Notes under the pieces: generated by a model
Database searches by the model: none
The model's input: only the letters and a program-made list of their open reading frames with translations
Told to the model about the DNA's origin: nothing
Made by a program: the position numbers and the translations under genes
Origin: Burkholderiales bacterium
Lineage (GTDB): Bacteria; Pseudomonadota; Gammaproteobacteria; Burkholderiales; SG8-39
Direction of reading: 5' to 3'
Length of the DNA: 64,000 bases
Assembly (NCBI GenBank): GCA_041558415.1
Contig: JBFFEY010000013.1
Coordinates: 183-64,182, forward strand
In this document: positions 35,688 to 52,425 of the stretch, piece after piece
Layout: the number at the start of each line of letters is the position of its first letter
Numbering within the stretch: the first letter of the stretch is position 1

Positions 35688-35749
35688 GCGCAGCTCCTTC
35701 GCCGGTCGGCGGCAAAGCCCAGAACTGTAGCGAAGCGGGCGCGATCCCG

Positions 35750-36565
35750 CTAGAGCATCGCCCCCGGCTGGTCGAGCGCGTATTCGCTCAGCTGCGCCAC
35801 CAACCAGTCATAGGCCGCGTCCACCGAATCGGTGCGATACATCAGCTCGAGGTCCTCGGCGTTGATCGCGCCATGCCGCACCAGGGCGTCGAAATTGATC
35901 ACTTCGCGCCAGTACTCGGTGCCGAACAGCACGATCGGCATCGGCTTGGACATCTTCCGGGTCTGCACCAAGGTGAGCAGCTCGAACAGCTCGTCCATCG
36001 TGCCGAAGCCGCCCGGAAAGACGATCACCGCCTTCGCCAGGTAGGCGAACCAGAACTTGCGCATGAAGAAGTAGTGGAAATGGAAGGCGAGCTCGCGCGT
36101 GACGTAGGGGTTGTCGAACTCCTCGATCGGGATCGAGATCGTCAAGCCGACGTTCATGCCGCGCGCCTCGGCCGCGCCGCGGCTCGCCGCCTCCATGATG
36201 CCCGGCCCGCCGCCGGTGCAGACCACGAAGCGGCGCTCCTTGTGGTCGAGCGCCTTTGACCACTGCGTGAGCCGGAACGCGAGCTCGCGCGCGGCCTCGT
36301 AGTACACCGACATGCGCAGGTCGCGCTGCGCGCGCTCGGGATCGCCCTCTTCGAGCTGCGCCTGGCGCAATGCCGCCTCCGCCTCGTCGCGCGGCTTGAT
36401 GCGCGCCGAGCCCATGAAGACGATCGTGTCGTCGACCTTCTCGGCCTCGAAGCGGCTCTTCGGCTCGAGGTACTCGGCGAGGATGCGCAGGGGGCGCGCA
36501 TGCTTGCTGTTGAGGAAAGCCCGGTTGCGGTAGGCCTTGACGCCGCTGCGCCGTCGCTCGGTCAT
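35750..36565 (-). CDS. LOG-family (TIGR00730-type) nucleotide phosphoribohydrolase
   Basis: 271 aa. Motifs VCTGGGPGIMEA and PGGFGTMDELFE. Confidence 0.85.
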   Translation of the reverse strand: MTERRRSGVKAYRNRAFLNSKHARPLRILAEYLEPKSRFEAEKVDDTIVFMGSARIKPRDEAEAALRQAQLEEGDPERAQRDLRMSVYYEAARELAFRLTQWSKALDHKERRFVVCTGGGPGIMEAASRGAAEARGMNVGLTISIPIEEFDNPYVTRELAFHFHYFFMRKFWFAYLAKAVIVFPGGFGTMDELFELLTLVQTRKMSKPMPIVLFGTEYWREVINFDALVRHGAINAEDLELMYRTDSVDAAYDWLVAQLSEYALDQPGAML

Positions 36566-36609
36566 ACGTTAGCTTCTTCCAGAGTTATCCACAGGGGTCG
36601 ACCCCCAGT

Positions 36610-38538: not shown

Positions 38539-38588
38539 GCGGCGCGCGATTCTACCGAATCACGCCTGCGCTTCTGCGCATTGGCCGC

Positions 38589-40352: not shown

Positions 40353-40421
40353 GCGCGCCCGTCTCGACCCGCTGTCTTGAGGAGTCTGGATGTTACCCCC
40401 TCGACCGATCGACAATGCGGA

Positions 40422-42209
40422 TCACTCGGGCAGCCCCGCCTTCACCAGCGCCTGCTGCACCTGCCCGCAATGCTGCCGATCGGCGAAAAACAGCGTGCGA
40501 CAGAACTCCGCTGCGCGAAAGTCGGGCTTGAGGCGCAGGACTTCCGCGCGCGACGCCTGCGCGCCCGCTGCGTCATCGAGCTGCGCCTGACAGGCCGCGA
40601 CGTAGGCGTGATGGCCGTAGCGCATCGCCGGCAGGCGCCAGAACGCCTGCACGGCCTCGGCGTAACGCCCCGCGCCGAACAGCGCGCGCCCGAGCAGGTG
40701 CGCCCAGATGTGCGCCTCGTGCGGATCGAGCCGCATCGCGCGCTCGATCCAATCGATGCCCTCCTCGGCGCGGCCGAGCCAGGTCAGAATCTCGCCACGC
40801 TGCGCGAGCAGGCGCGGATCGCTCGGATTGAGGCCCAGCAGCTTGTCGCTCATCAGCAGCGCCTCGTCGAGCCGTCTCTGCATGATGCGGAATTCGCAGA
40901 TGATGCGCAGGCACTCGAGATCGTTATCATCGATCGACAGGCCGTGCTCGACGCTGCGCAGCACCTCTTGCTCTGTCTCGGCTGAGTACCGCTTGTAGCC
41001 TCGTGCCATCGCCTGCGTCAGCGTGCATCCGTGCCAGCCGTAGGCGGCCGCGTAGTTCGGATCGATCTGAATCGCCTGCTCGAGCAGCTGCAGGCCGAGC
41101 GCGTTGTCCTCGGCGGTGCCGCTGTGGTGACAGAGCTTGGCGCGCAGCACCCGGTCGTAGACGCTCATGTCGGCCGGCTTCTTGCGCTTGACGAGCTCGA
41201 GCTGCGCGTCCTCGACGCGGCTCGGCAGAGCCGCAACGATGTGCCGTGTCAGCTCGTCCTGCAGCTCGAATATGTCCACCAGCTCCCGGTCGAAGCGCTC
41301 GGCCCAGACGTTCTTGCCGCTTTCTGCTTCGATCAGCTGCACGTTGACGCGCACCCGCGCGCCGCCCCTACGCACGCTGCCTTCGACGACATAGCGCACG
41401 CCGAGGTCGCGCGCGACGTCCTGCACGCGCGCCGCCTTGCCCTTGTAGACGAACACCGAGTTGCGTGCGACGACGGTAATCGCCTGAAAGCGGGCGAGCT
41501 CGGTAATGATGTCCTCGGTGATGCCGTCGGCGAAGTAATCCTGCTCCGGATCGCCGCTCATGTTGGCGAATGGCAGCACCGCGATCGATGGCTTTGCCGC
41601 AAGCAGAAGATGGCCAAGCCCGCCCGCGGCCGACGGCGCCGGGCGGGTGCCGCGCTCGCCGGGCCGCAGCCGGTACGCACGCACCGGCTCGGCGATGTTT
41701 TTCACCTGCTGCTCGCCCTGGTCCTCGAATCCGGCGTCGACCTTGCCGCGCACCGCGCTGCGCACCGACTCGGATACCGCGATGCCCCCGGGCGGCGCCA
41801 GGCCTTCCAGGCGCGCGGCGATGTTCACCCCGTCGCCGTAGACCGTGCCGTCGGCTTTTTCGATGATCTCTCCGAGATGGATCCCGATGCGGAAGCGCAT
41901 GCGGCGCTCTTCGGGAACCTCAGCGCCGCCGGCCTCGAGCGCCTGCTGGATCGCGAGTCCGGCGGCCACCGCGCCGGTTGCCAGCTCGAACACCGCGAGC
42001 ACCGAGTCCCCGGCCATATCGATCACACGGCCCTGCTGCGCCTCGATCTTCGTCCGGAACACCGCGCGTGCGGCGTCGAGCGCCGCCACGGTCGCGCGCT
42101 CATCCAGCGACATCAGGCGCGAATAGCCAGCGACGTCCGCCGCCAGGATCGCCGCCAGCCGCTGCCTCAGTTCAGTCCCGCGCATCCGCCCGAAATTCGT
42201 GTCTGCCAT
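40422..42209 (-). CDS. Class III cyclase domain - TolB-N-like - TPR protein (paralog 3)
   Basis: Track ORF 40422..42839 trimmed to MADTNFGRMRGTELRQRLAAILAADVAGYSRLM (residue 211, cat 42207-42209). Motifs RVIDMAGDSVLAVF, GTVYGDGVNIAARLEG and a TPR tail. Confidence 0.85.
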   Translation of the reverse strand: MADTNFGRMRGTELRQRLAAILAADVAGYSRLMSLDERATVAALDAARAVFRTKIEAQQGRVIDMAGDSVLAVFELATGAVAAGLAIQQALEAGGAEVPEERRMRFRIGIHLGEIIEKADGTVYGDGVNIAARLEGLAPPGGIAVSESVRSAVRGKVDAGFEDQGEQQVKNIAEPVRAYRLRPGERGTRPAPSAAGGLGHLLLAAKPSIAVLPFANMSGDPEQDYFADGITEDIITELARFQAITVVARNSVFVYKGKAARVQDVARDLGVRYVVEGSVRRGGARVRVNVQLIEAESGKNVWAERFDRELVDIFELQDELTRHIVAALPSRVEDAQLELVKRKKPADMSVYDRVLRAKLCHHSGTAEDNALGLQLLEQAIQIDPNYAAAYGWHGCTLTQAMARGYKRYSAETEQEVLRSVEHGLSIDDNDLECLRIICEFRIMQRRLDEALLMSDKLLGLNPSDPRLLAQRGEILTWLGRAEEGIDWIERAMRLDPHEAHIWAHLLGRALFGAGRYAEAVQAFWRLPAMRYGHHAYVAACQAQLDDAAGAQASRAEVLRLKPDFRAAEFCRTLFFADRQHCGQVQQALVKAGLPE

Positions 42210-42356
42210 GCGGAGAGCCGATAGTAACGCTCCAGGCAATACAATGGCGCCTGGCCGTGGCTTGAGGAGCCTCTGGTGCCGCGCTCGCGCATGCGCGCCA
42301 AAAGCCGCATCACCGGCGCCCGGCTGTGGATCGAAAACCTGTAACACCCTGAGGCG

Positions 42357-43562
42357 ATGCAACGCGAAACCCTCTCCGAGACGATCCCGCTCGACGTCGA
42401 AACCGAGACGTATCTCGCGCGCGCACGCGCGATTGCGCCGCGCATCCTCGACGCGGCACAGGAAATCGAAGGCACGCGCCGCATTCCCGACGAGCTGCTC
42501 GGCGCGCTGCACGCGGCGGGGCTGTATCGCATGTTCATCCCGCGCCGCTACGGCGGCGGCGAAGTCCACCCGCTCACCTTCATGCGCACGGCTCAGGCGA
42601 TCGCGCGCGCCGATGCCAGCACGGCCTGGAACATCGGCCAGAACGCGGTGTGCGCCATCGTTGCCGCCTACCTCGAGCCGCAGGTGGCGCAGGAGATCTT
42701 TGGCGACCCGCGCGCGGTGCTCGCCTGGGGACCGGCACAGGGCCCGGTGCGTGCGGTCGCCTGCGAAGGCGGTTATCGTGTCACCGGCCGCTGGGCGTTC
42801 GCGAGCGGCATGCGCCAGGCCACCTGGCTCGGGCCGCAATGCCCGGTGTTCGAGGCCGACGGCAGTCCGCGGCGTACGGGCGAGGAACGCATGCGCAAGC
42901 GCGTCTTTCTCATCCCTGCATCGGTCGCGCGCGTGGAAGACGTCTGGGACGTGATCGGGTTACGCGGCACCGCGAGCGACGCCTTCGCGGTCGAGGACCT
43001 GTTCGTGCCCGAGGCCCACAGCGTTCACCGCGAGAGCCCGGTGGAGAACCGCGAGCCGGGCTGGCTGTACTGCTTTTCGATCCACAACCTCTTTTCCTGC
43101 GGTTTCGCCAGCATCGCGCTTGGTGTGGCACAGGCAATGCTCGAAGCCCTCATCGACCTGGCGGCGCACAAAGTGCCGCGCGGCATGCGCAGCACGCTGC
43201 GCGACAACGCGGTGGTGCAGGGCGGCGTAGCGCGCGCGCGTGCCAAGCTTGAGTCCTCGGAGGCCTACCTGCTGCACTCCGTGGCGGAGATCTGCGACGC
43301 CGTGCAGGCGACGCGCGAGGTGACGCTGGCACAGCGCATGCGTATCCGCCTCGCCTCGACGCACGCGATCCATGCTGCGCGCGAGGCCGGCGATTTCGTC
43401 TACGAGGCGGCGGGCGCGACCGCCGTGTTCGCCGCCAATCCTTTCGAACGCCGCTTCCGCGACCTGCACGCCATCGCCCAGCAGCTGCAGGGGCGCGCGG
43501 CGCACTTCGAGACCGTGGGGCAGTACCTGCTCGGCCTCGAGGCCGACACGACGTTTCTCTGA
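42357..43562 (+). CDS. Acyl-CoA dehydrogenase-fold flavoprotein (possibly a monooxygenase-type member)
   Basis: 401 aa. IPDELLGALHAAGLYRMFIPRRYGG, GRWAFASG and GLRGTASDAF are typical of the ACAD-fold hydroxylase/dehydrogenase group. Confidence 0.7.
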   Translation: MQRETLSETIPLDVETETYLARARAIAPRILDAAQEIEGTRRIPDELLGALHAAGLYRMFIPRRYGGGEVHPLTFMRTAQAIARADASTAWNIGQNAVCAIVAAYLEPQVAQEIFGDPRAVLAWGPAQGPVRAVACEGGYRVTGRWAFASGMRQATWLGPQCPVFEADGSPRRTGEERMRKRVFLIPASVARVEDVWDVIGLRGTASDAFAVEDLFVPEAHSVHRESPVENREPGWLYCFSIHNLFSCGFASIALGVAQAMLEALIDLAAHKVPRGMRSTLRDNAVVQGGVARARAKLESSEAYLLHSVAEICDAVQATREVTLAQRMRIRLASTHAIHAAREAGDFVYEAAGATAVFAANPFERRFRDLHAIAQQLQGRAAHFETVGQYLLGLEADTTFL

Positions 43563-43569
43563 GACCCGC

Positions 43570-44325
43570 TCAGGGCGCGAGCGGCGGGTCGCGGTCGGCG
43601 GGCACGCCCGCAAGGAACCGGTGATACGCGGCCGCGCGGTTGATGAGCGCTCTGGGATCCTGTTCGAGCGTGCCGCTGCGCACGGCGGACAGCGTGTAGA
43701 CCGCCCAGATGCCCGGCTCGACGCGATCGAGAAAATGGATCACACGCATTGCCTCGGGGGCGTACAGCGTGAAGAGCAGGAAGCGGAGCGCCGACGCATT
43801 TTCACTCTCGATGACGAGGCGATTCTTCCCGATGCGTCGGCAGACCAGTCGATACTGGTTCAGGCCGGTCGAGCGCGTATCGCGCTGTGCGGTGTACAGC
43901 GTGCGGCCGCTCAGCACTTCCTCTGCGACGAAATCGCTGCGGCGCCGCTCCGGATCCGGCCCGCTGAGCGCAAACGCCTCGTCCAGCAGCGTGCGCCAGT
44001 CCTGGTCGGTCACCGACCAGTAGCGCAGGCCCTTGGTCTTCGAGATGGCGCCGATGCGCCGCGCCATGTCCTCGACCGACAGCGGCGAACCGAAGCGCCC
44101 CGCCAGCGCGACGACCACCGCCATGCGCTCGCGCAGCGCGCCAAGGCAGGCAGGCGCACGCGAAAGGTCGGCGTCGCGCCAGGCGGCGACCGCCGGCGCA
44201 CCGTTCACCGGCCCGTAAGCCGGATGCACCTCGGCACCTGCCGAGTCGCAGGGCGGCACCGGATTCGCCTGCGCGGCCGCGCACAGCGCGAGCAACAGGA
44301 CGGCGCCTGCGACGCGATTTCGCAT
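43570..44325 (-). CDS. Secreted protein, unrecognised family; last gene of the amidoligase operon
   Basis: Track ORF trimmed to MRNRVAGAVLLLALCAAAQA (signal peptide, cat 44323-44325). It starts 5 nt downstream of the preceding stop. Confidence 0.55.
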   Translation of the reverse strand: MRNRVAGAVLLLALCAAAQANPVPPCDSAGAEVHPAYGPVNGAPAVAAWRDADLSRAPACLGALRERMAVVVALAGRFGSPLSVEDMARRIGAISKTKGLRYWSVTDQDWRTLLDEAFALSGPDPERRRSDFVAEEVLSGRTLYTAQRDTRSTGLNQYRLVCRRIGKNRLVIESENASALRFLLFTLYAPEAMRVIHFLDRVEPGIWAVYTLSAVRSGTLEQDPRALINRAAAYHRFLAGVPADRDPPLAP

Positions 44326-44329
44326 GCGC

Positions 44330-45070
44330 TCAGCGTTGCTCGAGCACCACCACCCAGGGCCGCGCCGCAGTCGGCACCGCGCGACCCTCGGCATCCAGGG
44401 CAACGCGTGTAAGGGATACCGCATCGCTCACATTGCCGCCGATCGCGTCGAGCTCGCCCGCACGCTGCTCGACGACCAGGTCGCAGTGATAGGCACCGCG
44501 GCGCAGATCGGCGAATTCGCGCACCTCCGCGACGAAGGCCTCGCCGCGCGGCGCGCAAATGAGGTCGCCGATCCGAGGCGCGTAGGCGCGCGCGTCGCGC
44601 GCGACGAAGCGGCGGCTGTCGCCATTCAACGCATGCGCGATGTAGTCCCAGTGCAGCACCGTCGGGGGGAAAGCGTCGCGCGACAACCCGGCGCTCGTCG
44701 CCAGCCAGCTGATGAAGGCCGCGGACCAGGGCCGCAGTTCGCCCTGCAGGCCGACGATCGGCTGGCTGCTCACCGCGTACCAGTAGGTCAGCACGCGCGA
44801 CAGCATCGGCCCCTGCACCTCGTGCGTCGCCTCGACGCCGGGTGGAAACTCGAGAAACGATTCGGCGCCGTTGTCGATCACCACCGGACGGCCGAACAGC
44901 GTCCATTCCTGGCGCGCGAGGAACACCATGCGGGCGCGCGCGTCGGGCACGACGAAGTTCGGCAGGATGTCATCCGACGGCGTGAGGCGCGGCACGCGCT
45001 CAGGCGGCTTGACCGCGCAGCCCGCGGCGAACACGAGCGCCAGGAACGGTGCGAGGAGACGCGACCTCAT
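44330..45070 (-). CDS. DUF2272-like lipoprotein
   Basis: Track ORF 44330..45832 trimmed to MRSRLLAPFLALVFAAGC (lipobox). Motifs RPWSAAFISWLATSAG, AYHCDLVV and IGGNVSD. The ATG overlaps the upstream stop (ATGA 45067-45070). Confidence 0.6.
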   Translation of the reverse strand: MRSRLLAPFLALVFAAGCAVKPPERVPRLTPSDDILPNFVVPDARARMVFLARQEWTLFGRPVVIDNGAESFLEFPPGVEATHEVQGPMLSRVLTYWYAVSSQPIVGLQGELRPWSAAFISWLATSAGLSRDAFPPTVLHWDYIAHALNGDSRRFVARDARAYAPRIGDLICAPRGEAFVAEVREFADLRRGAYHCDLVVEQRAGELDAIGGNVSDAVSLTRVALDAEGRAVPTAARPWVVVLEQR

Positions 45071-45783
45071 CGCGCCGCGAGCACGCGCGCCAGCGCCTCG
45101 ATCACCTGCGCGCGCCGCGTGCGCGCCCGCGCGTGCACCATGGTCGCCTGGTTCAGTTCGAGTTCGATGCCGAGGTACACCGTTTCGGGGTGGCGCCGCC
45201 GCCACCAGGTCGTGAAGCCGTCGCTCTTGCCAAGATACGGATAGTTGCGCCGCACGCGCAAGTCGGGGGCGACGATTTTCAGCTCGCGCTGCCAGGCGGC
45301 GCACAGCGCGGCCTCTTCCGCGCGCGCCGGGTCGTACAGCAGCCCGACGTCGGCGGTGCGTGCGACGCCCTCGAGCGACGCCGCGAAGCTGTGGCAGGAC
45401 AGGTGCAGCGTCGGCCGGCCGCTGCGGATCGCGCCGCCGACCAGCGCCTCGACGCGCCGACGGTGTGGCAGGTAATGACGCTCGAAGATTTCGCGGCGCT
45501 GCAACCGGTCGGCCTCGCGCGTGACAAACGAGTAGAGCTGCGGATGGCCGTGCGAGCGGTTCAGATCGACCAGCAGGCGCGTCGCCGTTGCCGCCGCGAG
45601 CGGCGCGCCGAACGCCGCCGCGAGGGCGCGCGCCATCGCCAGCGCACCGCGGTCGTAGGCACGGTGGCTGTCGAGCAGCGCGCGATGCGGGACAAACAGC
45701 GGCCGGTAGCGCGCCGGCACGGCGTTGCTGGCATGCTCGCAGCTCACCACGACCGCGTGGCGGTAGCGCATCGCGTCGCTCAC
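45067..45783 (-). CDS. N-formylglutamate amidohydrolase (FGase) family
   Basis: 238 aa. Motifs VVSCEHASNAVP, LVDLNRS and LHLSCHSF. Confidence 0.75.
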   Translation of the reverse strand: MSDAMRYRHAVVVSCEHASNAVPARYRPLFVPHRALLDSHRAYDRGALAMARALAAAFGAPLAAATATRLLVDLNRSHGHPQLYSFVTREADRLQRREIFERHYLPHRRRVEALVGGAIRSGRPTLHLSCHSFAASLEGVARTADVGLLYDPARAEEAALCAAWQRELKIVAPDLRVRRNYPYLGKSDGFTTWWRRRHPETVYLGIELELNQATMVHARARTRRAQVIEALARVLAAR

Positions 45784-45788
45784 GGCCC

Positions 45789-47042
45789 TCAGGCTTCGGC
45801 GCTGAACGGCCGACCGGCCTCCAGGCAGTCACACAGCTCGGCGTATACCGCCTGCAGGCGTTCGCGCGGCAGCTCGCTGCCCGCCGCCTGCAGGATACGG
45901 CGCGCGAGCGGTCCTTCGGAGAGGATCAGCTCGAGGCGCTCGTTCCACAGCGTGCGCTCCTCGTCGCTGCCGACCAGTGACAGCGTCGTCTCGATGAGGT
46001 GGCGCCACAGCTCGCCGGCAGTGGCGCGCCGCGCGCGCAGGCCGAGCCCGGTGAGATACTCGGCGTCGTCGATGATCGCGGCGTCCGCGTCCGCGATGCA
46101 GGCGTGCAGAATGTTCACCAGGCGTGCGGTCGGAAACGGTGCCAGCGGATCCTCGTTGGCGAGGCGCCCCTCGTAGCAGGCGCGCAGCGCGCCGATCGCG
46201 GCGGCGGCCACCGCAAGATCCATTGCCGGGCACTCCTGCGTGTCGATGACGCGCAGCTCGAGCGCGCTGCGATCGAAGCGCACGATCGCACCGCGCGCGT
46301 TGAGCCACTCGTCCTGCATCACGCCGTCGGCATCGAAGGGCGCCATCTCGGCGTACATGGGCGCGAGGATCTCGGCGCGGTAGGCCGCTTCGCTGCGCAC
46401 CGGCTCGGGCACGATATCGCCGAGCATCGCGGGCACGCGCGCCGCGTGCGTCAGGTAGCACTGCATGCGGTAGTCGAGCACCGTCTGGCGCGCACCGTCG
46501 GCGACCGGCGAACTCGCCGCGAGCGCCGGCAGGATCGGCAGCACGCGGCGCGCCGCTGCGAGCAGCCGCGCCAGCTCGGCGTCGCCGGCGAACGGCAGGT
46601 TGACGTGCATGCTCTGCACGTTGGCCCAGCCATGGCGCCGGCAGTCGAACACGCGGTCGTAGGTGGCGTAAATCTCGGCATATTCGTGCGGCCAGAGGCG
46701 CGTCTCGCTGCGCGGATTCATCCAGGGGTGCATGCCGGTCGGCATGAGGCGCGCGCCGAGTGGCGCAAGGCGCGCGTTCATCGCGCGCACCTCGTCCTGA
46801 AAGCCCTCGGCGAGCGACTCGAGCCCCGCCTCCGGGCGCTCGCTTTTCAGTTCCAGAAGGTGCAGCACCAGCTCGTTCGACCAGCCGAAGCGGCCGTGGT
46901 TCAGCGCGTTGACCACCGCGCCCGAGGCGTCGCGCAACAACTGGTCGGCGATCGGCCGCACCGCGAGCGTCTCGCGGTCCACCAGCACGTACTCCAGCTC
47001 GATGCCGGCGCCGGCGAAGGCATGCAGGGCTTTCGGTGCCAT
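45789..47042 (-). CDS. Glutamate-cysteine ligase family 2 (GCS2/YbdK-like carboxylate-amine ligase)
   Basis: 417 aa. Motifs GIELEYVLVD, SNELVLHLLELKS and MHVNLPF. Confidence 0.75.
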   Translation of the reverse strand: MAPKALHAFAGAGIELEYVLVDRETLAVRPIADQLLRDASGAVVNALNHGRFGWSNELVLHLLELKSERPEAGLESLAEGFQDEVRAMNARLAPLGARLMPTGMHPWMNPRSETRLWPHEYAEIYATYDRVFDCRRHGWANVQSMHVNLPFAGDAELARLLAAARRVLPILPALAASSPVADGARQTVLDYRMQCYLTHAARVPAMLGDIVPEPVRSEAAYRAEILAPMYAEMAPFDADGVMQDEWLNARGAIVRFDRSALELRVIDTQECPAMDLAVAAAAIGALRACYEGRLANEDPLAPFPTARLVNILHACIADADAAIIDDAEYLTGLGLRARRATAGELWRHLIETTLSLVGSDEERTLWNERLELILSEGPLARRILQAAGSELPRERLQAVYAELCDCLEAGRPFSAEA

Positions 47043-47043
47043 T

Positions 47044-48507
47044 TCAGCGGCTGCGCTTGCGCTCTTCGATGCGCCGCACGATGGTGCCCATGATCTCGCG
47101 GTACAAGGCGTCCTTCAGGACCTCATCCTCCACGCCGGCGTCGACGCTCGGATTGTCGTTCACCTCGACCACGTAATAGCGCTCGCCGACCTGCTTCAGG
47201 TCGACGCCGTAGAAGCCGTCGCCGATCAGGTTGGCGGCCTTGAGGGCGATCTTGAGCAGCTCGGCCGGCGCCTCGCCCACCGACAGCGTCACCGAGCGCC
47301 CCTCGACCGGCTTGCCCTCGCCTTCGCGCCGCACCACCTGCCAATGGCCGCGCGCCATGTAGTACTTGCAGACATAGAGCACGCGGCGATCGAGGATGCC
47401 GACACGCCAGTCGAAGTCGGTCGGCAGCCATTCCTGCGCCACCACTAGCTCCGAGTCGTCCAGCATGGCGTTGACTTCCTGCTTGAGCTGATCCTGCGTC
47501 TCGACCTTCTTCACGCCGAGCGAGAACGCCCCGTCCGGCCGTTTCAGCACGCAGGGCAGCGCGAGCGCCGAGATGATCTGGTCCGTGTTGCCTTTGTGTA
47601 CCAGCAGCGTCTTCGGCACCGGCACGTCATAGCGGTCGAACAGCTCGGCGAGGTAGACCTTGTTGCTGCAGCGCAGGATCGATTCCGGATCATCGATCAC
47701 GACCAGGCCCTCCGCCGCCGCTCGGCGCGCGAAGCGGTAGGTGTAGTGATTGACGAAGGTGGTGTCGCGGATGAACAGGGCGTCGAATTCGGCTAGCCGG
47801 CCGATGTCGTCCCGTTGGATCAGCTCGCAGGCCATGCCCACCGCCTCCGCGGCGCGCTCGAACTTCGCCAGCGCCCTGGCGTTCGACGGCGGCTCGGGGT
47901 TTTCCGGATCGTGCAGGATGGCGAGATCGAAGCGCGGCTCGGCGCGGCGCCGTGCGCGCCGGTAGCGCCCCCCGAAATAGTCCGTCGCCGCCTGGATGAC
48001 GAACGGCTTGTGTGCTTCCGGGATGTCGCTCGCCGCGATCGGGCGGATCGCTTGCACGCGCCACTCTCCGCGCCGGCGCCGGAAGGTCGCGCGCAACAGC
48101 GGCGCCGGCACCAGGTGGAACAGGTGCTGGCACAGCGAGTCGTAGCGCGCCGCGACGTTGCGCCCGAAGTAGATGCTCAGCTCGAACTCGTCGGACTTGA
48201 TCGGCGCGAGCGAGCGCTGGATCTGGTCTTCGAGTCCCTCGATCAGCAGCCGCACCAGGTTGCGTGACTGCAGGTCCTCGATCGTGCTGACCCGGGGCAG
48301 CGGCTTGTGGCCGCGCGCCTCGGCCAGCAGCGAGACGTAGTAGCCGAGGCTCTGGTAGCGGTACGAGCGGCACAGGTTGAAGACCTTGCCGCTATGGGCC
48401 TCGTTATAGGCCGGGTCGGTCAGGTAGGCGCGCGCCGACACCAGCGTGACGCCCGCAATCTGCAGCGGCCACTGGCGCGGCTCGTCGACGACGATCAGGA
48501 TGCTCAT
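47044..48507 (-). CDS. RimK-type ATP-grasp ligase with an N-terminal RLAN-like domain
   Basis: 487 aa. The N-terminal roughly 200 aa (VFNLCRSYRYQSLGYYVSLLAEARGHKPLP) precede the ATP-grasp core (LPCVLKRPDGAFSLGVKKV, VVAQEWLPTDFDWRVGIL, YYVVEVNDNPS). Confidence 0.8.
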   Translation of the reverse strand: MSILIVVDEPRQWPLQIAGVTLVSARAYLTDPAYNEAHSGKVFNLCRSYRYQSLGYYVSLLAEARGHKPLPRVSTIEDLQSRNLVRLLIEGLEDQIQRSLAPIKSDEFELSIYFGRNVAARYDSLCQHLFHLVPAPLLRATFRRRRGEWRVQAIRPIAASDIPEAHKPFVIQAATDYFGGRYRRARRRAEPRFDLAILHDPENPEPPSNARALAKFERAAEAVGMACELIQRDDIGRLAEFDALFIRDTTFVNHYTYRFARRAAAEGLVVIDDPESILRCSNKVYLAELFDRYDVPVPKTLLVHKGNTDQIISALALPCVLKRPDGAFSLGVKKVETQDQLKQEVNAMLDDSELVVAQEWLPTDFDWRVGILDRRVLYVCKYYMARGHWQVVRREGEGKPVEGRSVTLSVGEAPAELLKIALKAANLIGDGFYGVDLKQVGERYYVVEVNDNPSVDAGVEDEVLKDALYREIMGTIVRRIEERKRSR

Positions 48508-49232
48508 CGCCTGCGGATCCGTCCGCTTGGGTTGATGACCAGCAGATTGGCGTCATGCGTCACGATGCCGAGCAGAACCGCGTTCAGCACGCGGTCGATG
48601 TTGATCCAGTAGCGCCGGCTCGATCCGTAGGGGTGCGGTCCGTAGGGATCGACCACCAGCACGCTGCGCGCGCGCCGGTCGTAGCCCGCGAGCACGACGA
48701 AATGGCCCGCCGGGCCGCCGCGGACGTCATCGGGAACGTCATGCGGGCCGTACTCGCGCGCGCTGCGGTAGAGGAAGGTCGAGGAAAGGCCCGTAAGGAT
48801 CGGCAGCCGGCGGCGCAGGACGGCGCGCACCAGCGAGCGCGACAGGTCAGCCAGGCGCAGGCGCCCGCCAAGCGCGAGAAACTCGAGGTAACCGTCGGTC
48901 GCGTGGACCAGGTGCGGGTCGCGGTGCTTCTTGTCGCGCTGGCGCCGCAGCCGGTCCGCGATATCGACGCCGGGGCGAAACCAGGTCGGATCGAACACCG
49001 TCAGGTTGTAGGTGTAGATCGTCGCCTCGAAGCCCTTGCGCAGCGCGTCGCAGGCGAGAAACACCGCGTAGGTGCCGCCGTGCTCGAGGCGTCGCGCGCG
49101 CGCGATGATCGTGCGCAGCGCCTCGCGCCTGCCCCAGTAGCGGTAGATGGCATGCAGGCAGGTCGGGCCGCAGCTCGTCCCGTCCGGCTGGGCGAGCATG
49201 GTCACCGGCAGCCGCAACGTGACGGGTAGCAT
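48504..49232 (-). CDS. Papain-fold (C39-like) cysteine peptidase
   Basis: 242 aa. QPDGTSCGPTCL provides the Gln plus nucleophile Cys, and GHFVVLAGYD provides the His. The stop overlaps the ATP-grasp ATG (ATGA 48504-48507). Confidence 0.65.
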   Translation of the reverse strand: MLPVTLRLPVTMLAQPDGTSCGPTCLHAIYRYWGRREALRTIIARARRLEHGGTYAVFLACDALRKGFEATIYTYNLTVFDPTWFRPGVDIADRLRRQRDKKHRDPHLVHATDGYLEFLALGGRLRLADLSRSLVRAVLRRRLPILTGLSSTFLYRSAREYGPHDVPDDVRGGPAGHFVVLAGYDRRARSVLVVDPYGPHPYGSSRRYWINIDRVLNAVLLGIVTHDANLLVINPSGRIRRR

Positions 49233-49246
49233 GGGGCGCGGATTGT

Positions 49247-49282
49247 AGCGGTTTTAGCGGTTTTAGCGGCTTGAGCGGCTTG
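49247..49282. repeat. Four tandem 9-mers (2x AGCGGTTTT, 2x AGCGGCTTG)
   Basis: Counted base by base: 49247-49255, 49256-49264, 49265-49273 and 49274-49282. They fill most of the 50-nt gap between the ALDH stop (49283) and the peptidase ATG (49232). Confidence 0.9.
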
Positions 49283-50719
49283 TCAGGCGAGCGTGTAGGC
49301 CGTCTTCACCGTGGTGTAGAACTCGGCCGCATAGCGGCCCTGCTCGCGCGGCCCGTAGCTCGAGCCCTTGCGCCCGCCAAACGGCACGTGGTAGTCGACG
49401 CCCGCGGTCGGCAGATTGACCATCACCATGCCCGCCTGCGCATTGCGCTTGAAATGGGAGGCGTACTTGAGCGAGGTCGTGCAGATGCCCGCCGACAGGC
49501 CGAAACTCGTGTCGTTGGCCACCGCCAGCGCCTCGTCGTAATCCTTGACCCGGATCACGCTCGCGATCGGGCCGAAGATCTCCTCGCGGTTGATGCGCAT
49601 GCCGTTGTGGGTGTCGGTGAACAGCGCCGGCTGCAGGAAATAGCCTTCGGTCTCGCGCCCGAGGATGTCGCCACCGAACACCTTGGCACCCTCGTTGCGG
49701 CCGACGTCGAGGTAGGACAGGTCCTGGTTGAGCTGCGACTGGTCGACCACCGGGCCGATGTCGACGCCGGGCTTGAGCGCGTTGTCGACCTTGAGCGCCT
49801 GCATCTTCTCGCGCATCGCAGCAACGAATTTGTCGTGCATGCCCTGCGTGACGATCAGTCGGCTCGAGGCGGTGCAGCGCTGCCCCGTGGAGAAAAAGGC
49901 GCCGTTCACGCAGGCGCCGACGGCGACCGCGAGATCCGCGTCGTCGAGCACCACCATCGGGTTCTTGCCGCCCATCTCGAGCTGGATCTTCTTGCCCTGC
50001 GCGACCGCGCGCTGCGCGATGCCGCGTCCGGTCTCGACCGAGCCGGTGAACGAGATCGCCGCAACGTCCGGCGAGGCGACGATCGCTTCGCCGACCACCG
50101 CGCCACGCCCCATGACCAGGTTGAAGGCGCCGGCCGGCACGCCCGCCTCCTCGAGGATCTTGGCGAGCGCCCAGGCACAGCCCGGCACCAAGTCCGCAGA
50201 CTTGAACACCACGCAGTTGCCGTAGGCCAGCGCCGGCGCGATCTTCCAGGCTGGGATGGCGATCGGGAAATTCCAGGGCGTGATGATGCCGACCACGCCG
50301 AGCGGCTCGCGCGTGATCTCGACGTCGACGCCGGGGCGTACCGACGTCAGTTTCTCGCCCTCGATCCGCACCACCTCGCCGGCGAAGAACTTGAAGATGT
50401 AGCCGGCGCGCGCCGCCTCGCCGATCGCCTCGGGCAGCGTCTTACCCTCCTCGCGCGCCAGCAGCTTGCCGAGTTCCTCCTTGCGCGCGAGGATCGCGCT
50501 GCCCGCGCGGTCGAGAATGTCGGCACGCTCCTGGATGCTCGACCAGCCCCACTTCGGAAACGCCGCCTTCGCCGCCGCGATCGCCGCCTGGGCCTGCGCC
50601 GCGTCCGCCTGCGCGTACTCGCCGACGACGTCGGCGAGATCCGACGGGTTCTTGTTCAGGTTAACGCCGGCGCCCGGCAGCCACTGGCCGCCGATCAGAT
50701 TTGCGTGCAGGTTGCTCAT
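49283..50719 (-). CDS. Aldehyde dehydrogenase, alpha-ketoglutarate-semialdehyde dehydrogenase-like
   Basis: 478 aa. Motifs ITPWNFP, EMGGKNP and FFSTGQRCTA (catalytic Cys). The KGSADH assignment comes from overall similarity as I recall it and from the adjacent XylX-like gene. Confidence 0.75.
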   Translation of the reverse strand: MSNLHANLIGGQWLPGAGVNLNKNPSDLADVVGEYAQADAAQAQAAIAAAKAAFPKWGWSSIQERADILDRAGSAILARKEELGKLLAREEGKTLPEAIGEAARAGYIFKFFAGEVVRIEGEKLTSVRPGVDVEITREPLGVVGIITPWNFPIAIPAWKIAPALAYGNCVVFKSADLVPGCAWALAKILEEAGVPAGAFNLVMGRGAVVGEAIVASPDVAAISFTGSVETGRGIAQRAVAQGKKIQLEMGGKNPMVVLDDADLAVAVGACVNGAFFSTGQRCTASSRLIVTQGMHDKFVAAMREKMQALKVDNALKPGVDIGPVVDQSQLNQDLSYLDVGRNEGAKVFGGDILGRETEGYFLQPALFTDTHNGMRINREEIFGPIASVIRVKDYDEALAVANDTSFGLSAGICTTSLKYASHFKRNAQAGMVMVNLPTAGVDYHVPFGGRKGSSYGPREQGRYAAEFYTTVKTAYTLA

Positions 50720-50740
50720 CTGCTTCTCCTCCGTGTGTAC

Positions 50741-51934
50741 TCAGTGCTTCAACAGGCCGCGCTGCGCGAGGTTGCGCATCAGCGCGCCGGCGCCGAAAGT
50801 CCAGGGTTCGATCTCGTCGCAATAGCGCACGCGGTTCACCAGCGCGCCGAGCGACGGGGTGGCAATCGTCACCCGGTCGCCCGGCTTGTGGGTGAAACCC
50901 TGGCCGGGCGCGTCGCGATCCTGGATCGGCGCGAACATCGTGCCGAGGTAAAGCGCGAGCCCGTCGGGGTACTGGTGGTTCTCGTTCATCGCCTGGCGCA
51001 CGATCTCGAGCGGGTCACGGCTGATCTTCGAGAGCGAGCTTACGCCCTCCAGGGCGAAGCCGTCGTCGCCTTCCACCTTGAGCGCGACGTCCGCCGCGCG
51101 CACCTGGTCGATCGTAAAGCGGCCGTCGAACAGGCGGATGAACGGCCCGATCGCACTCGAAGCGTTGTTGTCCTTGGCGCGGCCGAGCAGCAGCGCGCTG
51201 CGGCCCTCGACGTCACGCAGGTTGACGTCGTTGCCGAGCGTCGCGCCGACCACCTCGCCGCGCGCGTTCGCGACCAGCACCACCTCGGGCTCGGGATTGT
51301 TCCAGGTCGAAGTGCGCAGGATGCCGATGTCGGCGCCGACGCCCACCGATGCCAGCGGCGCGCACTTGGTGAAAATCTCGGCGTCCGGCCCGATGCCGAC
51401 CTCGAGATACTGCGACCAGGCGCCCTGCTCGATGAGCGTTTTCTTCAGCGCCATCGCCGCCTCCGATCCGGGGCGGATCGCGGCGAGGTCGCCGCCGACC
51501 AGCGCGTCGATCTTCGCGCGGATCGCCTGCGCCTTCGACGGGTCGCCGCGCGCCTGCTCCTCGATCACGCGCTCGAGCAGGCTGGTCACGAAGGTCACGC
51601 CGCTCGCCTTCACCACCTGCAGATCCAGCGGCGCGAGAAAGCGCGTGCGCGCCGCGCTTTCCGGACCGGCGGCGCTCGCCACCAGCAGCGCATCGACGCG
51701 GCCGATCGACGGCAAGCCGTCGAGCGTGGCGAGCTGCGCGGCGAGATCGTAGTGCTCGAGCAGCTGCGCCACGGTCGGCGCGAGCGAAGACAGGTCGAGC
51801 ACCTCGTCGCCGCGCAGCAGCACCGGGCTCGGCCCGCCCGGATCGCCGGCCAGCCAGGCGCGCCCGACCAGCACCGCCTGCGCCGCGTCGGCGGGCAGCA
51901 CCCGCGCCTTGTTGAGCAGCGACTCGACCTGCAT
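50741..51934 (-). CDS. FAH-family 2-keto-3-deoxy-pentonate dehydratase-like (XylX-like)
   Basis: Trimmed to MQVESLLNKARV (cat 51932-51934). Long stretches match my memory of XylX-type proteins: WSQYLEVGIGPDAEIFTK, WNNPEPEVVLV, LGNDVNLRDVEGRSALLLGRAKDNNAS, HQYPDGLALYLGTMFAPIQDRD. Confidence 0.65.
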   Translation of the reverse strand: MQVESLLNKARVLPADAAQAVLVGRAWLAGDPGGPSPVLLRGDEVLDLSSLAPTVAQLLEHYDLAAQLATLDGLPSIGRVDALLVASAAGPESAARTRFLAPLDLQVVKASGVTFVTSLLERVIEEQARGDPSKAQAIRAKIDALVGGDLAAIRPGSEAAMALKKTLIEQGAWSQYLEVGIGPDAEIFTKCAPLASVGVGADIGILRTSTWNNPEPEVVLVANARGEVVGATLGNDVNLRDVEGRSALLLGRAKDNNASSAIGPFIRLFDGRFTIDQVRAADVALKVEGDDGFALEGVSSLSKISRDPLEIVRQAMNENHQYPDGLALYLGTMFAPIQDRDAPGQGFTHKPGDRVTIATPSLGALVNRVRYCDEIEPWTFGAGALMRNLAQRGLLKH

Positions 51935-51939
51935 TCCCT

Positions 51940-52425
51940 TCAGTCCCTGGGCCGCTTGCGCAGCAGATAACGGTGATTGCCCTCCAGCACGAGGACGTTC
52001 TGCTGGTTGTGCACCGTCGCGCGCAGCACCATCACGCCGGTCGAGCGCTGCGGGATCAGCTCCGCAACCTCGAGCAGCGGGTACAGGGTGTCGCCGCTGT
52101 ACACCGGGGCGAGCATCTTCGCCGAGCATTCGAGCATCGCCACCAGCGAATCGGCGACCAGCCGCGGGAAAACCCCCGCCCCCGCGGCCGTCTGGATCAT
52201 GACCTGCAGGCCGTGCGCCAGCATGCCCGGATGACCGCGGCGCCGACAGTACTCGACGTCGTAATGGATCGGGTCGTTGTCACCCGAGGCGAGCTGAAAG
52301 GCAGCGAACAGCGCATCGGTCTGGGTACGCGACGGGATGTAGAAGCGCTCGCCAAGGGCGAAATCCTCGAACCAGCGCGTCGCAGCGAAACGATGGTCAC
52401 GCGCCGCATCGAACCCCGGAGCCAT
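51940..52425 (-). CDS. MaoC-like single hot-dog dehydratase
   Basis: 161 aa. Motifs GDNDPIHYD and MLAHGLQV. Confidence 0.75.
   Translation of the reverse strand: MAPGFDAARDHRFAATRWFEDFALGERFYIPSRTQTDALFAAFQLASGDNDPIHYDVEYCRRRGHPGMLAHGLQVMIQTAAGAGVFPRLVADSLVAMLECSAKMLAPVYSGDTLYPLLEVAELIPQRSTGVMVLRATVHNQQNVLVLEGNHRYLLRKRPRD

What the first reader, a model, noticed from the sequence alone, without database searches (positions are those of the whole stretch)
43570..49232. Six-gene amidoligase operon with exported components
All six genes are on the minus strand with boundaries of -4, +1, +5, -4 and +4 nt, which implies one translationally coupled unit. In order they encode:
- a papain-fold peptidase (QPDGTSCG...GHFVVLAGYD);
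- a RimK-type ATP-grasp ligase with an extra N-terminal domain;
- a GCS2 carboxylate-amine ligase;
- an FGase-family amidohydrolase;
- a DUF2272-like lipoprotein;
- a secreted protein of unknown family.
Two different ATP-dependent amide-bond ligases plus two hydrolases is the signature of a non-ribosomal small-peptide or gamma-glutamyl-type conjugate pathway. As I recall, associations of RimK-like, GCS2 and FGase genes have been noted in comparative-genomic surveys of amidoligases. I am not aware of any biochemical characterisation of the product. The two exported proteins suggest that the product or its target is in the periplasm or cell wall. No candidate ribosomal substrate peptide was found.
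Basis: partly seen in the sequence, partly recalled or inferred. Interest (0 to 1): 0.7.

Follow-up and report, generated by a model that had tools for sequence, protein, structure and literature searches.

The report
Conserved orphan glutamate-peptide ligase gene cassette
This is a real six-gene operon, but only its first four genes (two ATP-dependent amide-bond ligases and two hydrolases, all cytoplasmic) form a cassette conserved across about ten bacterial phyla; its product is unknown, and the two exported proteins are recent local add-ons.

Summary
Six minus-strand genes lie at 43570-49232 with junctions of -4, +1, +5, -4 and +4 nt, and every family call holds (C39-like papain fold, RLAN+RimK ATP-grasp, GCS2, FGase, DUF2272 lipoprotein). 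The 'unknown' secreted protein is DUF6675.

Comparative analysis changes the picture.
- Of 80 genomes with an RLAN-RimK gene, 42 carry C39-like/RLAN-RimK/GCS2/FGase, 40 of them in this order with tight junctions. Another 14 lack only FGase.
- DUF2272 joins the cassette in only four closely related Burkholderiales species. DUF6675 joins it in two.
- Twenty other DUF2272 orthologues have no cassette gene nearby.
- In other lineages a GNAT acetyltransferase replaces GCS2, as a neighbour, fused to a C39-like domain, or fused to RLAN-RimK itself.

None of the ligases or hydrolases is a housekeeping orthologue (RimK, YbdK, GshB, HutG). No conserved precursor peptide, carrier protein or transporter accompanies the cassette.

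The best reading is a cytoplasmic system that builds and trims a small N-capped, glutamate-containing peptide, with the logic of GshA/GshB. The periplasm or cell-wall inference is not supported.

As far as I recall, the association was flagged computationally in 2009. I found no biochemical characterisation. This is a new member of a known, orphan kind.

The parts
48504..49232 (-). g1: cytoplasmic papain-fold (C39-like) cysteine hydrolase or transacylase, 242 aa. Core component.
   Evidence: Pfam Peptidase_C39_2, 36.5 bits. Q15, C21, H177 and D195 are conserved in at least 80-95% of 62 sequences across phyla. AF2 model pLDDT 83. Foldseek finds only generic papain-fold matches with TM up to 0.5: xylellain, PeiR, phytochelatin synthase Alr0975, PCAT1/ComA C39 domains and CtaG. 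Adjacent to RLAN-RimK in 60 of 80 loci, and elsewhere in the cluster in 2 more.
47044..48507 (-). g2: RLAN-RimK ATP-grasp amide ligase, 487 aa. This is the signature gene of the system.
   Evidence: Pfam RLAN 1.9e-52 plus RimK 4e-10. The nearest characterised families are MptN, rimK_fam, LysX and CofF, all far below their cut-offs. PDB RimK matches reach only E~6e-8. More than 8000 clusters at 90% identity match at E<=1e-10, and many Beta- and Gammaproteobacteria are about 70% identical. ATP-grasp motifs are conserved.
47992..48435 (-). RLAN domain of g2 (residues 25-172), with the near-invariant motif NLCxSYxYQSxGYYVSLLAxARxH.
   Evidence: Pfam match; conservation. A profile search finds no PDB relative. 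No relation to the pre-ATP-grasp domain by hhalign. 818 clusters at 50% identity in 1.84 billion representatives.
45789..47042 (-). g3: GCS2-type (glutamine-synthetase-fold) carboxylate-amine ligase, 417 aa. Core component.
   Evidence: Pfam GCS2 1.7e-25. YbdK family TIGR02050 scores 53.9 bits against a cut-off of 176. No PDB sequence match. Follows RLAN-RimK in 63 of 80 loci. Catalytic motifs are conserved.
45067..45783 (-). g4: FGase-family amidohydrolase, 238 aa. Frequent fourth component.
   Evidence: Pfam FGase 2e-20. No NCBIfam hit, so it is not a HutG equivalog. Closest structure is 2odf, Atu2144, of unknown function. Present in 42 of the 58 GCS2-containing loci with room for it. CEH…HR..D…H..H motifs are conserved.
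44330..45070 (-). g5: DUF2272 outer-membrane-type lipoprotein (NlpC/P60-like fold with a serine nucleophile), 246 aa. A lineage-specific addition, not part of the conserved system.
   Evidence: Pfam DUF2272 2.5e-25. Lipobox and the PWSAAF…YHCD…GGNV motifs are conserved. Next to the cassette in only 4 related species; 20 other orthologues have no cassette gene within 6 kb. Family described in PMC10318531.
43570..44325 (-). g6: DUF6675 secreted protein (Sec signal AQA|NP), 251 aa. A very recent lineage-specific addition.
   Evidence: Pfam DUF6675, 50.7 bits. Found beside g5 only in the window species and in L088 (61% identity). Absent in SG8_39 and L003, where g5 is followed directly by the convergent acyl-CoA dehydrogenase. 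The genome scan found no other relatives.
49233..49282 (-). 50-nt spacer between the upstream aldehyde dehydrogenase gene and g1. It holds short tandem CCGCT-containing repeats and a TACAAT hexamer 11 nt before the ATG, with no Shine-Dalgarno-like run.
   Evidence: Sequence. The consensus scan found no promoter or terminator here. The upstream genes are not conserved with the cassette elsewhere.

Best explanation
The functional unit is a cytoplasmic four-gene cassette, g1-g4: C39-like papain-fold enzyme, RLAN-RimK ATP-grasp ligase, GCS2 ligase and FGase-type amidohydrolase. It builds and trims a small glutamate-containing amide or peptide.

Proposed steps (all inferred, none shown):
1. GCS2 activates the gamma-carboxylate of glutamate and joins it to the amino group of an amino acid or amine. 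This 'caps' that compound as gamma-Glu-X.
2. RLAN-RimK activates the free carboxylate of the capped compound as an acyl phosphate and adds the alpha-amino group of L-glutamate, once or repeatedly. The product would be gamma-Glu-X-Glu(n).
3. The FGase homologue removes C-terminal glutamate. An N-acyl-L-glutamate bond is what FGase cleaves and what RimK-type ligases make.
4. The papain-fold enzyme cleaves or transfers the other bond.

This is the GshA/GshB logic (a GS-fold ligase followed by an ATP-grasp ligase) with dedicated turnover enzymes. In other lineages the capping enzyme is a GNAT acetyltransferase instead of GCS2, which parallels acetyl-capped dipeptides such as NAAG and NAGGN.

g5 (DUF2272 lipoprotein) and g6 (DUF6675) were appended to the 3' end of the operon recently, in one Burkholderiales clade. 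They are not part of the system.
For: Shown here:
- Family assignments and intact catalytic motifs across phyla.
- Of 80 RLAN-RimK loci, 42 carry all four genes, 40 of them in the same order with median gaps of about 0. Fourteen more lack only FGase. Two have a permuted order but keep the set.
- Identities of the four proteins fall together across loci.
- The ligases are not housekeeping orthologues.
- All the nearest characterised relatives of g2 (MptN, RimK, LysX, CofF) add Glu or aminoadipate to a carboxylate.
- GNAT replaces GCS2 in three forms: as a neighbour in 9 Verrucomicrobia/Kiritimatiellales loci, as a GNAT+C39-like (DUF3335) fusion directly upstream of RLAN-RimK in Azospirillum, and as an intact GNAT-RLAN-RimK fusion seen on three contigs.
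- No conserved small ORF, carrier protein or transporter lies in the neighbourhood.
- The core proteins lack signal peptides.
- g5 and g6 are restricted to 4 and 2 species, and g5 orthologues elsewhere are unlinked.

From established knowledge:
- GCS2 enzymes make gamma-glutamyl amides.
- FGase (HutG) hydrolyses N-formyl-L-glutamate.
- RIMKLA/B ligate Glu to N-acetyl-aspartate or citrate.
- The NAGGN operon combines a GNAT/ligase with a peptidase (PMC8070244).
Against: - No substrate or product is known, and none of the four reactions is demonstrated.
- Nothing here distinguishes a free metabolite from a protein C-terminus as the acceptor. RimK's own target, S6, is also unlinked to rimK.
- The role of the RLAN domain is unknown: the AF2 model of g2 was poor (pLDDT 59.6) and there is no PDB relative.
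- The papain-fold enzyme could be biosynthetic, as a transacylase like CtaG or BtrH (PMC7183216), rather than hydrolytic.
- FGase is missing from about a quarter of cassettes.
- In this species g4/g5 overlap by 4 nt, so a local functional link to the lipoprotein cannot be excluded.
Confidence: 0.5

Rival explanations
1. Protein or peptide tagging. RLAN-RimK polyglutamylates the C-terminus or a side-chain of a specific, unlinked protein, as RimK does on ribosomal protein S6. GCS2 makes a gamma-glutamyl isopeptide link, as the related PafA ligase does in pupylation. The C39-like protease and FGase are the erasers, as RimB is for RimK in Pseudomonas.
For: - The closest solved relatives of the ATP-grasp part are S6-glutamate ligases.
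- A ligase with an adjacent, translationally coupled peptidase mirrors RimK-RimB (PMC10092738).
- The extra, extremely conserved RLAN domain could be a target-recognition module.
- GNATs that pair with RLAN-RimK resemble protein N-acetyltransferases in general terms.
- The absence of a linked substrate gene is also true of RimK and S6.
Against: - g2 scores 30 bits against a 331-bit cut-off for the S6-RimK equivalog.
- FGase and GCS2 relatives with known function act on free small molecules.
- No candidate target gene is conserved nearby.
- The GNAT/GCS2 interchange fits a capping step on a free amino acid at least as well.
Confidence: 0.25
2. Biosynthetic transacylase model. The papain-fold enzyme is not a hydrolase. 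It forms an acyl-enzyme thioester and transfers a gamma-glutamyl-containing unit. This would resemble phytochelatin synthase oligomerising gamma-Glu-Cys, or CtaG/BtrH transferring acyl groups in ATP-grasp pathways. The product would be an oligomeric, possibly thiol-containing and metal-binding, peptide.
For: - Phytochelatin synthase Alr0975 and CtaG are among the Foldseek matches to the g1 model.
- CtaG, a member of the C39/DUF3335-like families, is a proven transacylase working with an iterative ATP-grasp ligase (PMC7183216).
- The best-established GCS2 activity is gamma-Glu-Cys synthesis.
- The Cys-His-Asp triad is intact.
Against: - The Foldseek matches are generic (TM up to 0.5, 9-17% identity), and C39 proteases and cathepsins score equally well.
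- The CtaG and BtrH systems are thiotemplated, and no carrier-protein or decarboxylase gene is conserved here.
- No metal-related genes are conserved nearby.
Confidence: 0.15
3. One reading: all six genes form one pathway whose product or target lies in the periplasm or cell wall, handled there by the DUF2272 lipoprotein and the DUF6675 protein.
For: - g4/g5 overlap by 4 nt and g5/g6 are 4 nt apart in this species.
- The DUF2272 family is related to peptidoglycan amidases that cut gamma-D-glutamyl bonds, such as Tse1 (PMC10318531). That loosely fits a glutamyl theme.
Against: - g5 is linked to the cassette in only 4 related species and g6 in 2.
- 20 g5 orthologues lie in unrelated contexts.
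- 76 of 80 RLAN-RimK loci have neither gene.
- No exporter is conserved with the cassette.
- The core enzymes are cytoplasmic.
Confidence: 0.07
4. Chance adjacency of ordinary housekeeping genes (S6-modifying RimK, YbdK, HutG).
For: The generic annotations in public records read 'RimK family protein', 'glutamate-cysteine ligase family protein' and 'N-formylglutamate amidohydrolase'.
Against: - All scores are far below the equivalog or subfamily cut-offs.
- The same four-gene set recurs across about ten phyla, mostly in one order, with overlapping junctions.
Confidence: 0.01

Closest known systems
RLAN-RimK / GCS2 / papain-like peptidase / FGase gene neighbourhood of the amidoligase survey (Iyer, Abhiman, Burroughs & Aravind 2009, Mol Biosyst; source of Pfam RLAN PF14401). 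Cited from memory: the paper, PMC3268129, is not in the held library.
   Same: Same four families, with the same fusion of RLAN to a RimK-like ATP-grasp. I reproduced the association independently in 42-63 of 80 genomes.
   Different: In this window two exported proteins (DUF2272, DUF6675) are appended. That is specific to one Burkholderiales clade. The system itself has no known product.
Glutathione biosynthesis, GshA + GshB
   Same: A glutamine-synthetase-fold carboxylate-amine ligase is followed by an ATP-grasp ligase, and both are cytoplasmic. JGI annotates g2 as a 'glutathione synthase/RimK-type ligase'.
   Different: - g2 scores 15-36 bits against GshB models whose cut-offs are 272-408.
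- g3 is below the cut-offs of all GCL models.
- g2 has an extra RLAN domain.
- Two dedicated hydrolases are co-encoded.
- The nearest relatives of g2 add Glu, not Gly.
RimK-RimB ribosomal protein S6 glutamylation system (E. coli, Pseudomonas)
   Same: A RimK-type ATP-grasp ligase is paired in an operon with a peptidase.
   Different: - g2 is not an S6-RimK orthologue: 30 bits against a cut-off of 331.
- The peptidase here is papain-fold, not retropepsin-like.
- A second ligase (GCS2) and an FGase are present.
- g2 carries an RLAN domain.
Closthioamide and butirosin pathways (ATP-grasp CtaD/BtrJ with papain-like transacylase CtaG/BtrH; PMC7183216)
   Same: An ATP-grasp amide ligase cooperates with a C39/DUF3335-like papain-fold enzyme that has a Cys-His-Asp triad. 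CtaG appears among the Foldseek matches.
   Different: Those pathways are thiotemplated, with PCP/ACP carriers and a PLP decarboxylase. None of these is conserved here. Their taxonomic range is also different (Firmicutes and Actinobacteria).
N-acetylated acidic dipeptide synthesis: bacterial NAGGN (asnO-ngg-peptidase; PMC8070244) and mammalian NAAG/beta-citrylglutamate (NAT8L + RIMKLA/B; from my own knowledge)
   Same: An N-capping step (GNAT) is followed by ATP-dependent ligation of an acidic or amide amino acid, with a peptidase in the same operon. This matches the GNAT-associated and GNAT-fused RLAN-RimK variants. RIMKLA/B belong to the RimK family.
   Different: The window's cassette uses GCS2, not GNAT, as the presumed capping enzyme. 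Ngg is not detectably homologous to RLAN-RimK: S. meliloti pSymB, where as I recall ngg lies, does not appear among the plasmid hits.

Membership tests
RLAN-RimK amidoligase cassette (RLAN-RimK + GCS2 + papain-like + FGase) | RLAN domain fused N-terminally to a RimK-like ATP-grasp | tested here: met
   Pfam RLAN 177 bits over residues 25-172, and RimK over residues 281-456.
RLAN-RimK amidoligase cassette (RLAN-RimK + GCS2 + papain-like + FGase) | Adjacent co-directional GCS2 ligase, papain-like enzyme and FGase, conserved across genomes | tested here: met
   Of 80 loci, 42 have all four, 40 of them in the same order. 62 have the C39-like gene and 63 have GCS2.
RLAN-RimK amidoligase cassette (RLAN-RimK + GCS2 + papain-like + FGase) | Description of this neighbourhood in the 2009 amidoligase survey | not testable with these tools
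   PMC3268129 is not held, so the claim rests on my recollection. A 2023 review cites that paper only for GNAT fused to C39-like DUF3335.
RimK, ribosomal protein S6--L-glutamate ligase | Score above the NCBIfam equivalog or subfamily cut-off | tested here: not met
   NF007764 scores 29.9 against 331; TIGR00768 scores 62.8 against 143.4.
RimK, ribosomal protein S6--L-glutamate ligase | Glutamylation of the S6 C-terminus | not testable with these tools
   This needs biochemistry or proteomics.
YbdK / GCS2 carboxylate-amine ligase | GCS2 fold and catalytic motifs | tested here: met
   Pfam GCS2 90.4 bits against 21. Motifs are conserved.
YbdK / GCS2 carboxylate-amine ligase | Membership of the YbdK subfamily or GCL equivalogs | tested here: not met
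   TIGR02050 scores 53.9 against 176.4, and the PRK13515/13517 models are far below their cut-offs. No PDB sequence match.
HutG N-formylglutamate amidohydrolase | FGase family domain | tested here: met
   Pfam FGase 74.3 bits against 28.9.
HutG N-formylglutamate amidohydrolase | HutG equivalog and histidine-utilisation context | tested here: not met
   No NCBIfam hit. There are no hut genes among the neighbours.
Peptidase C39 (bacteriocin leader peptidase) | Papain-fold Cys/His active site | tested here: met
   C21 and H177 are conserved. Fold confirmed.
Peptidase C39 (bacteriocin leader peptidase) | Fusion to, or association with, an ABC exporter and a double-glycine precursor | tested here: not met
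   g1 is a single-domain protein. No conserved ABC transporter or small ORF is present. PF03412 scores 21.8 against 22.
Thiotemplated ATP-grasp / papain-like transacylase pathways (Cta, Btr) | Carrier protein (PCP/ACP) and PLP decarboxylase in the cluster | tested here: not met
   There is no conserved additional gene cluster or small ORF around the cassette.
Glutathione synthetase GshB | Score above the GshB model cut-offs | tested here: not met
   PRK05246 scores 15.3 against 272; PRK12458 scores 35.8 against 408.
DUF2272 (serine-type NlpC/P60-like) | Family domain with Ser in place of the catalytic Cys, plus His | tested here: met
   Pfam 89.9 bits. PWSAAF and YHCD are conserved in 21 sequences. 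The family is described in PMC10318531.
Known anti-phage defence systems | Match to a PADLOC model | tested here: not met
   No hits for any of the six proteins.

The most novel reading that the evidence does not exclude
RLAN-RimK, together with the papain-fold enzyme and GCS2 (or GNAT), is a widespread bacterial protein-tagging system. The RLAN domain would recruit a specific protein, the ATP-grasp would write a glutamate tail, and GCS2 would make a gamma-glutamyl isopeptide branch, as its relative PafA does in pupylation. The C39-like protease and FGase would be the erasers. This would be a polyglutamylation or pupylation-like code in Proteobacteria, Bacteroidota, Planctomycetota, Nitrospirota and others.
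Probability: 0.15. Interest if true: 0.85.

Novelty: new member of a known kind. Interest (0 to 1): 0.42.

Why it matters
The cassette is a genuine 'known unknown'. It is a strongly conserved enzyme set: RLAN-RimK is 43-61% identical between phyla, and it forms more than 8000 clusters at 90% identity and 818 RLAN clusters at 50% identity. It occurs in environmentally dominant lineages (Thiobacillus, Sulfuricella, Nitrospirota, Planctomycetota, Cytophagales, Myxococcota) and in Legionella, with a stand-alone homologue in Pseudomonas aeruginosa. Yet it has no known product.

Identifying that product would add either a new widespread cytoplasmic peptide metabolite (a thiol, osmolyte or storage compound) or a new protein modification.

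This analysis makes three practical contributions:
- It narrows the target for experiments to three or four genes instead of six.
- It shows that GCS2 and GNAT are interchangeable partners, which points to an N-capped acceptor for the RimK-type ligase.
- It removes the misleading periplasmic or cell-wall lead.

Tried and rejected
1. Apparent C39-like/RLAN fusion proteins (P0285, P0370), which would have been Rosetta-stone evidence. Reading the contig and the sequences showed that the conserved C-terminal motif of the C39-like part, and the end of RLAN, are lost to frameshifts. These are assembly or sequencing artefacts and I rejected them.
2. The AF2 model of full-length g2 was poor (pLDDT 59.6), because the alignment held only homologues of 68% identity or more. 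I did not fold-search it.
3. An RLAN profile of 23 diverse sequences against PDB gave nothing significant (best E 0.07).
4. hhalign of RLAN against the pre-ATP-grasp domain or the whole ATP-grasp module showed no relation.
5. A search for conserved small ORFs (18-75 aa) around 80 loci found only clusters that are, with one minor 8-locus exception, shadows inside the core genes.
6. A genome-collection scan with g6 found no relatives.
7. PADLOC defence models gave no hits.
8. The promoter and terminator scan found no promoter, and terminator-like sites were at background level.
9. I tested whether NAGGN synthase Ngg might be a GNAT-RLAN-RimK protein. There is no hit on S. meliloti pSymB, so Ngg is an analogue in logic only.
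10. Six literature searches for any characterisation of the cassette found nothing. The 2009 survey could not be read.
11. Foldseek could not separate hydrolase-like from transacylase-like papain folds.

Full report
**Observation**

The region 43570-49232 holds six minus-strand genes. Two ORFs in the mechanical list (44330-45832 and 43570-44424) are over-extended, as is usual in 70% GC DNA. Reading the sequence places the g5 start at 45070, an ATGA overlap with the g4 stop. It places the g6 start at 44325, 4 nt after the g5 stop.

Pfam confirms every family call:
- g1: Peptidase_C39_2
- g2: RLAN plus RimK-type ATP-grasp
- g3: GCS2
- g4: FGase
- g5: DUF2272
- g6: DUF6675, which is the family of the 'unknown' secreted protein

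g5 has a lipobox that is conserved in its orthologues. g6 has a Sec-type signal peptide. g1-g4 have none.

The window comes from a Burkholderiales metagenome-assembled genome (GCA_035458905.1). Its public annotation carries only generic names.

**What is conserved**

A scan of one genome per species returned 80 loci encoding an RLAN-RimK protein, 43-94% identical to g2. They span Beta- and Gammaproteobacteria, Nitrospirota, Planctomycetota, Bacteroidota, Balneolales, Myxococcota, Leptospiraceae, Deferribacterales, Desulfovibrionales, Oligoflexales, Verrucomicrobiota/Kiritimatiellales and Brevinematales.

Searching these loci with the six window proteins gave the following:

| Arrangement | Loci |
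|---|---|
| C39-like, RLAN-RimK, GCS2 and FGase all present | 42 |
| First three genes, no FGase although the contig has room | 14 |
| Truncated by the contig end | 5 |
| RLAN-RimK without any of the other three | 15 |
| Other partial or truncated arrangements | 4 |

- Median extrapolated junctions are +1, -1 and -19 nt.
- Two loci place the C39-like gene after FGase. The set is retained even when the order changes.
- Unsupervised clustering of all ORFs in the loci found no other widely conserved neighbour.
- Clustering of 18-75 aa ORFs found only shadows of the core genes, apart from one minor 8-locus cluster. So no precursor peptide, carrier protein, transporter or regulator travels with the cassette.

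**The two exported proteins are add-ons**

- DUF2272 lies next to the cassette only in the window species, SG8_39, MAG_348_bin-10 and, probably, ALJrbin.28. In ALJrbin.28 the cassette and the g5-g6 pair lie on separate short contigs.
- Twenty further g5 orthologues (43-64% identity; Burkholderiales, Methylococcaceae, Azohydromonas) have none of the four core genes within 6 kb.
- DUF6675 follows g5 only in the window species and ALJrbin.28.
- In SG8_39, whose RimK is 94% identical, and in L003, g5 is followed directly by the same convergent acyl-CoA dehydrogenase gene that flanks g6 in the window. g6 is therefore a very recent insertion.
- The relative at about 80% identity (P0004) has only the four core genes.

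The DUF2272 family is a serine-nucleophile NlpC/P60-like fold related to peptidoglycan amidases (PMC10318531; motif conservation). A local functional recruitment in this clade cannot be excluded, but it is not a property of the system.

**Not housekeeping genes**

- g2 scores 30 bits against the S6-RimK equivalog (cut-off 331), 63 bits against the rimK family model (cut-off 143), and 15-36 bits against GshB models (cut-offs 272-408).
- g3 scores 54 bits against the YbdK family model (cut-off 176).
- g4 hits no NCBIfam model at all.
- Against PDB sequences, g2 matches RimK only at E~6e-8 over the ATP-grasp part. g3 matches nothing. g4 matches only the uncharacterised Atu2144.
- Catalytic motifs of all four proteins are conserved across phyla. 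In g1 these are Q15, C21, H177 and D195.
- The AF2 model of g1 (pLDDT 83) is a papain fold, but its Foldseek matches are generic (TM up to 0.5). Xylellain, the pseudomurein isopeptidase PeiR, phytochelatin synthase Alr0975, C39 domains of PCAT1/ComA, cathepsins and the transacylase CtaG all score similarly. Hydrolase and transacylase roles cannot be told apart this way.

**Other contexts of RLAN-RimK**

This is the most informative new result.

- In nine Verrucomicrobia/Kiritimatiellales loci, a GNAT acetyltransferase gene sits immediately upstream of RLAN-RimK and overlaps it.
- In Azospirillum, the gene directly upstream is a fusion of a homologous GNAT with a C39-like DUF3335 domain. g1 aligns weakly with that domain across the catalytic cysteine region.
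- An intact 646-aa GNAT-RLAN-RimK fusion occurs on three independent contigs.
- Pseudomonas aeruginosa has a stand-alone homologue. From gene order it is probably PA1345, which was still listed as hypothetical in 2025.
- Legionella adelaidensis has RimK-GCS2-FGase.
- A rough neighbour-joining tree separates GNAT-associated from GCS2-associated RLAN-RimK proteins. FGase presence is scattered within the GCS2-associated group.

So RLAN-RimK recurrently pairs with a papain-fold enzyme and with one of two N-acylating enzymes, GCS2 or GNAT.

**Mechanism (inferred)**

All the nearest characterised relatives of g2 (MptN, RimK, LysX, CofF) activate a carboxylate and add the amino group of glutamate or aminoadipate. 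The mammalian RimK-like enzymes RIMKLA/B do the same on N-acetyl-aspartate or citrate (my own knowledge). GCS2 enzymes make gamma-glutamyl amides. FGase (HutG) hydrolyses an N-acyl-L-glutamate, which is the bond type a RimK-type ligase creates.

The most economical model has four steps:
1. GCS2 gamma-glutamylates an amino acid or amine.
2. RLAN-RimK adds one or more glutamates to the free carboxylate of that compound.
3. The FGase homologue removes C-terminal glutamate.
4. The papain-fold enzyme cleaves or transfers the other bond.

This is the GshA/GshB logic with dedicated turnover enzymes. The GNAT variants would make acetyl-capped analogues. That resembles NAAG, and also the bacterial osmolyte NAGGN, whose operon likewise couples a GNAT/ligase with a peptidase (PMC8070244).

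I give this model about 0.5. The main rivals are:
- Protein C-terminal glutamylation with erasers, like RimK/RimB: 0.25.
- A biosynthetic transacylase role for g1, as in phytochelatin synthase or CtaG/BtrH (PMC7183216): 0.15. This is weakened by the absence of any carrier protein.

**Things that led nowhere**

- Two apparent C39-like/RLAN fusions proved to be frameshift artefacts.
- The full-length g2 model was too poor to use.
- RLAN has no detectable relative in the PDB, and it is not a recognisable duplicate of the pre-ATP-grasp domain.
- There were no PADLOC hits.
- No promoter was found. Only one terminator-like site lies inside the operon on its coding strand (within g4), and such sites are at background frequency.

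**Transcription-unit caveat**

g1 begins 50 nt after a co-directional aldehyde dehydrogenase gene. That gene follows a FAH-like gene and a MaoC-like gene at gaps of 21 and 5 nt. In this species the transcript may therefore be longer than six genes. These upstream genes are not conserved with the cassette elsewhere.

**Novelty and interest**

As I recall, the association of RLAN-RimK with GCS2, a papain-like peptidase and FGase was noted in the 2009 amidoligase survey that defined the RLAN domain. That paper is not in the held library, so this rests on memory. A 2023 review cites it for GNAT fused to C39-like DUF3335.

Six literature searches found no biochemical work on the cassette. The window therefore holds one more member of a computationally known but experimentally orphan system, with a trivial lineage-specific extension.

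It is not surprising to a specialist. However, the system is very widespread, strongly conserved, and directly testable with the three- to four-gene core defined here. Interest: 0.42.

Noticed in passing
window 49233-49282: The 50-nt spacer before g1 holds tandem short repeats (AAGCCGCT, AAGCCGCT, AAAACCGCT, AAAACCGCT) followed by TACAAT 11 nt before the ATG. There is no Shine-Dalgarno-like run. This could be a promoter giving a near-leaderless mRNA, or a regulator-binding site.
   Followed up: partly
window 49283-52425 (minus strand): Three co-directional genes lie upstream at gaps of 5, 21 and 50 nt: a MaoC-like dehydratase, a 397-aa protein with weak FAA-hydrolase similarity, and an aldehyde dehydrogenase. 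They may be co-transcribed with the cassette in this species, and they are not conserved with it elsewhere.
   Followed up: partly
window 40422-42185 and further downstream (L082 8193-11789): Two tandem paralogous genes encode 587-aa proteins with an adenylate/guanylate cyclase domain plus TPR repeats. They lie beyond the convergent acyl-CoA dehydrogenase gene.
   Followed up: no
L114 2031-5457, L115 1863-5289: The intact GNAT-RLAN-RimK fusion gene (P0379) lies directly after a CitMHS/DcuC-type carboxylate transporter gene and near a second GNAT gene. This hints that a di- or tricarboxylate could be the acceptor, as in beta-citrylglutamate synthesis by RIMKLB.
   Followed up: no
L109 (P. aeruginosa pZYPA1927, 31453-46925): The stand-alone RLAN-RimK homologue (529 aa, probably PA1345) sits near ggt and the aatJQMP glutamate/aspartate ABC transporter genes, and is convergent with a PLP aminotransferase gene. 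This 'plasmid' region looks chromosomal. A 2025 paper lists a Cpx-box upstream of PA1345.
   Followed up: partly
L025 10864-12024, L034, L042 (Planctomycetota); L037 10854-11996, L045 (Balneolales): In cassettes that lack FGase, lineage-specific proteins of about 380-400 aa with no Pfam match follow GCS2. The Balneolales protein appears to be a membrane protein. These could be replacements for FGase or unrelated neighbours.
   Followed up: partly
L112 (NZ_AP026896.1): A 4.9-Mb Aeromonas caviae record is filed as a plasmid in PLSDB and is evidently a chromosome. It carries a divergent RLAN-RimK homologue (33% identity) without cassette partners.
   Followed up: no
L113, and proteins P0285 and P0370: Representative proteins in the 50%-identity library that look like C39-RLAN fusions are frameshifted reads of the normal overlapping gene pair. 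This is a caution for domain-architecture mining in metagenome protein catalogues.
   Followed up: yes
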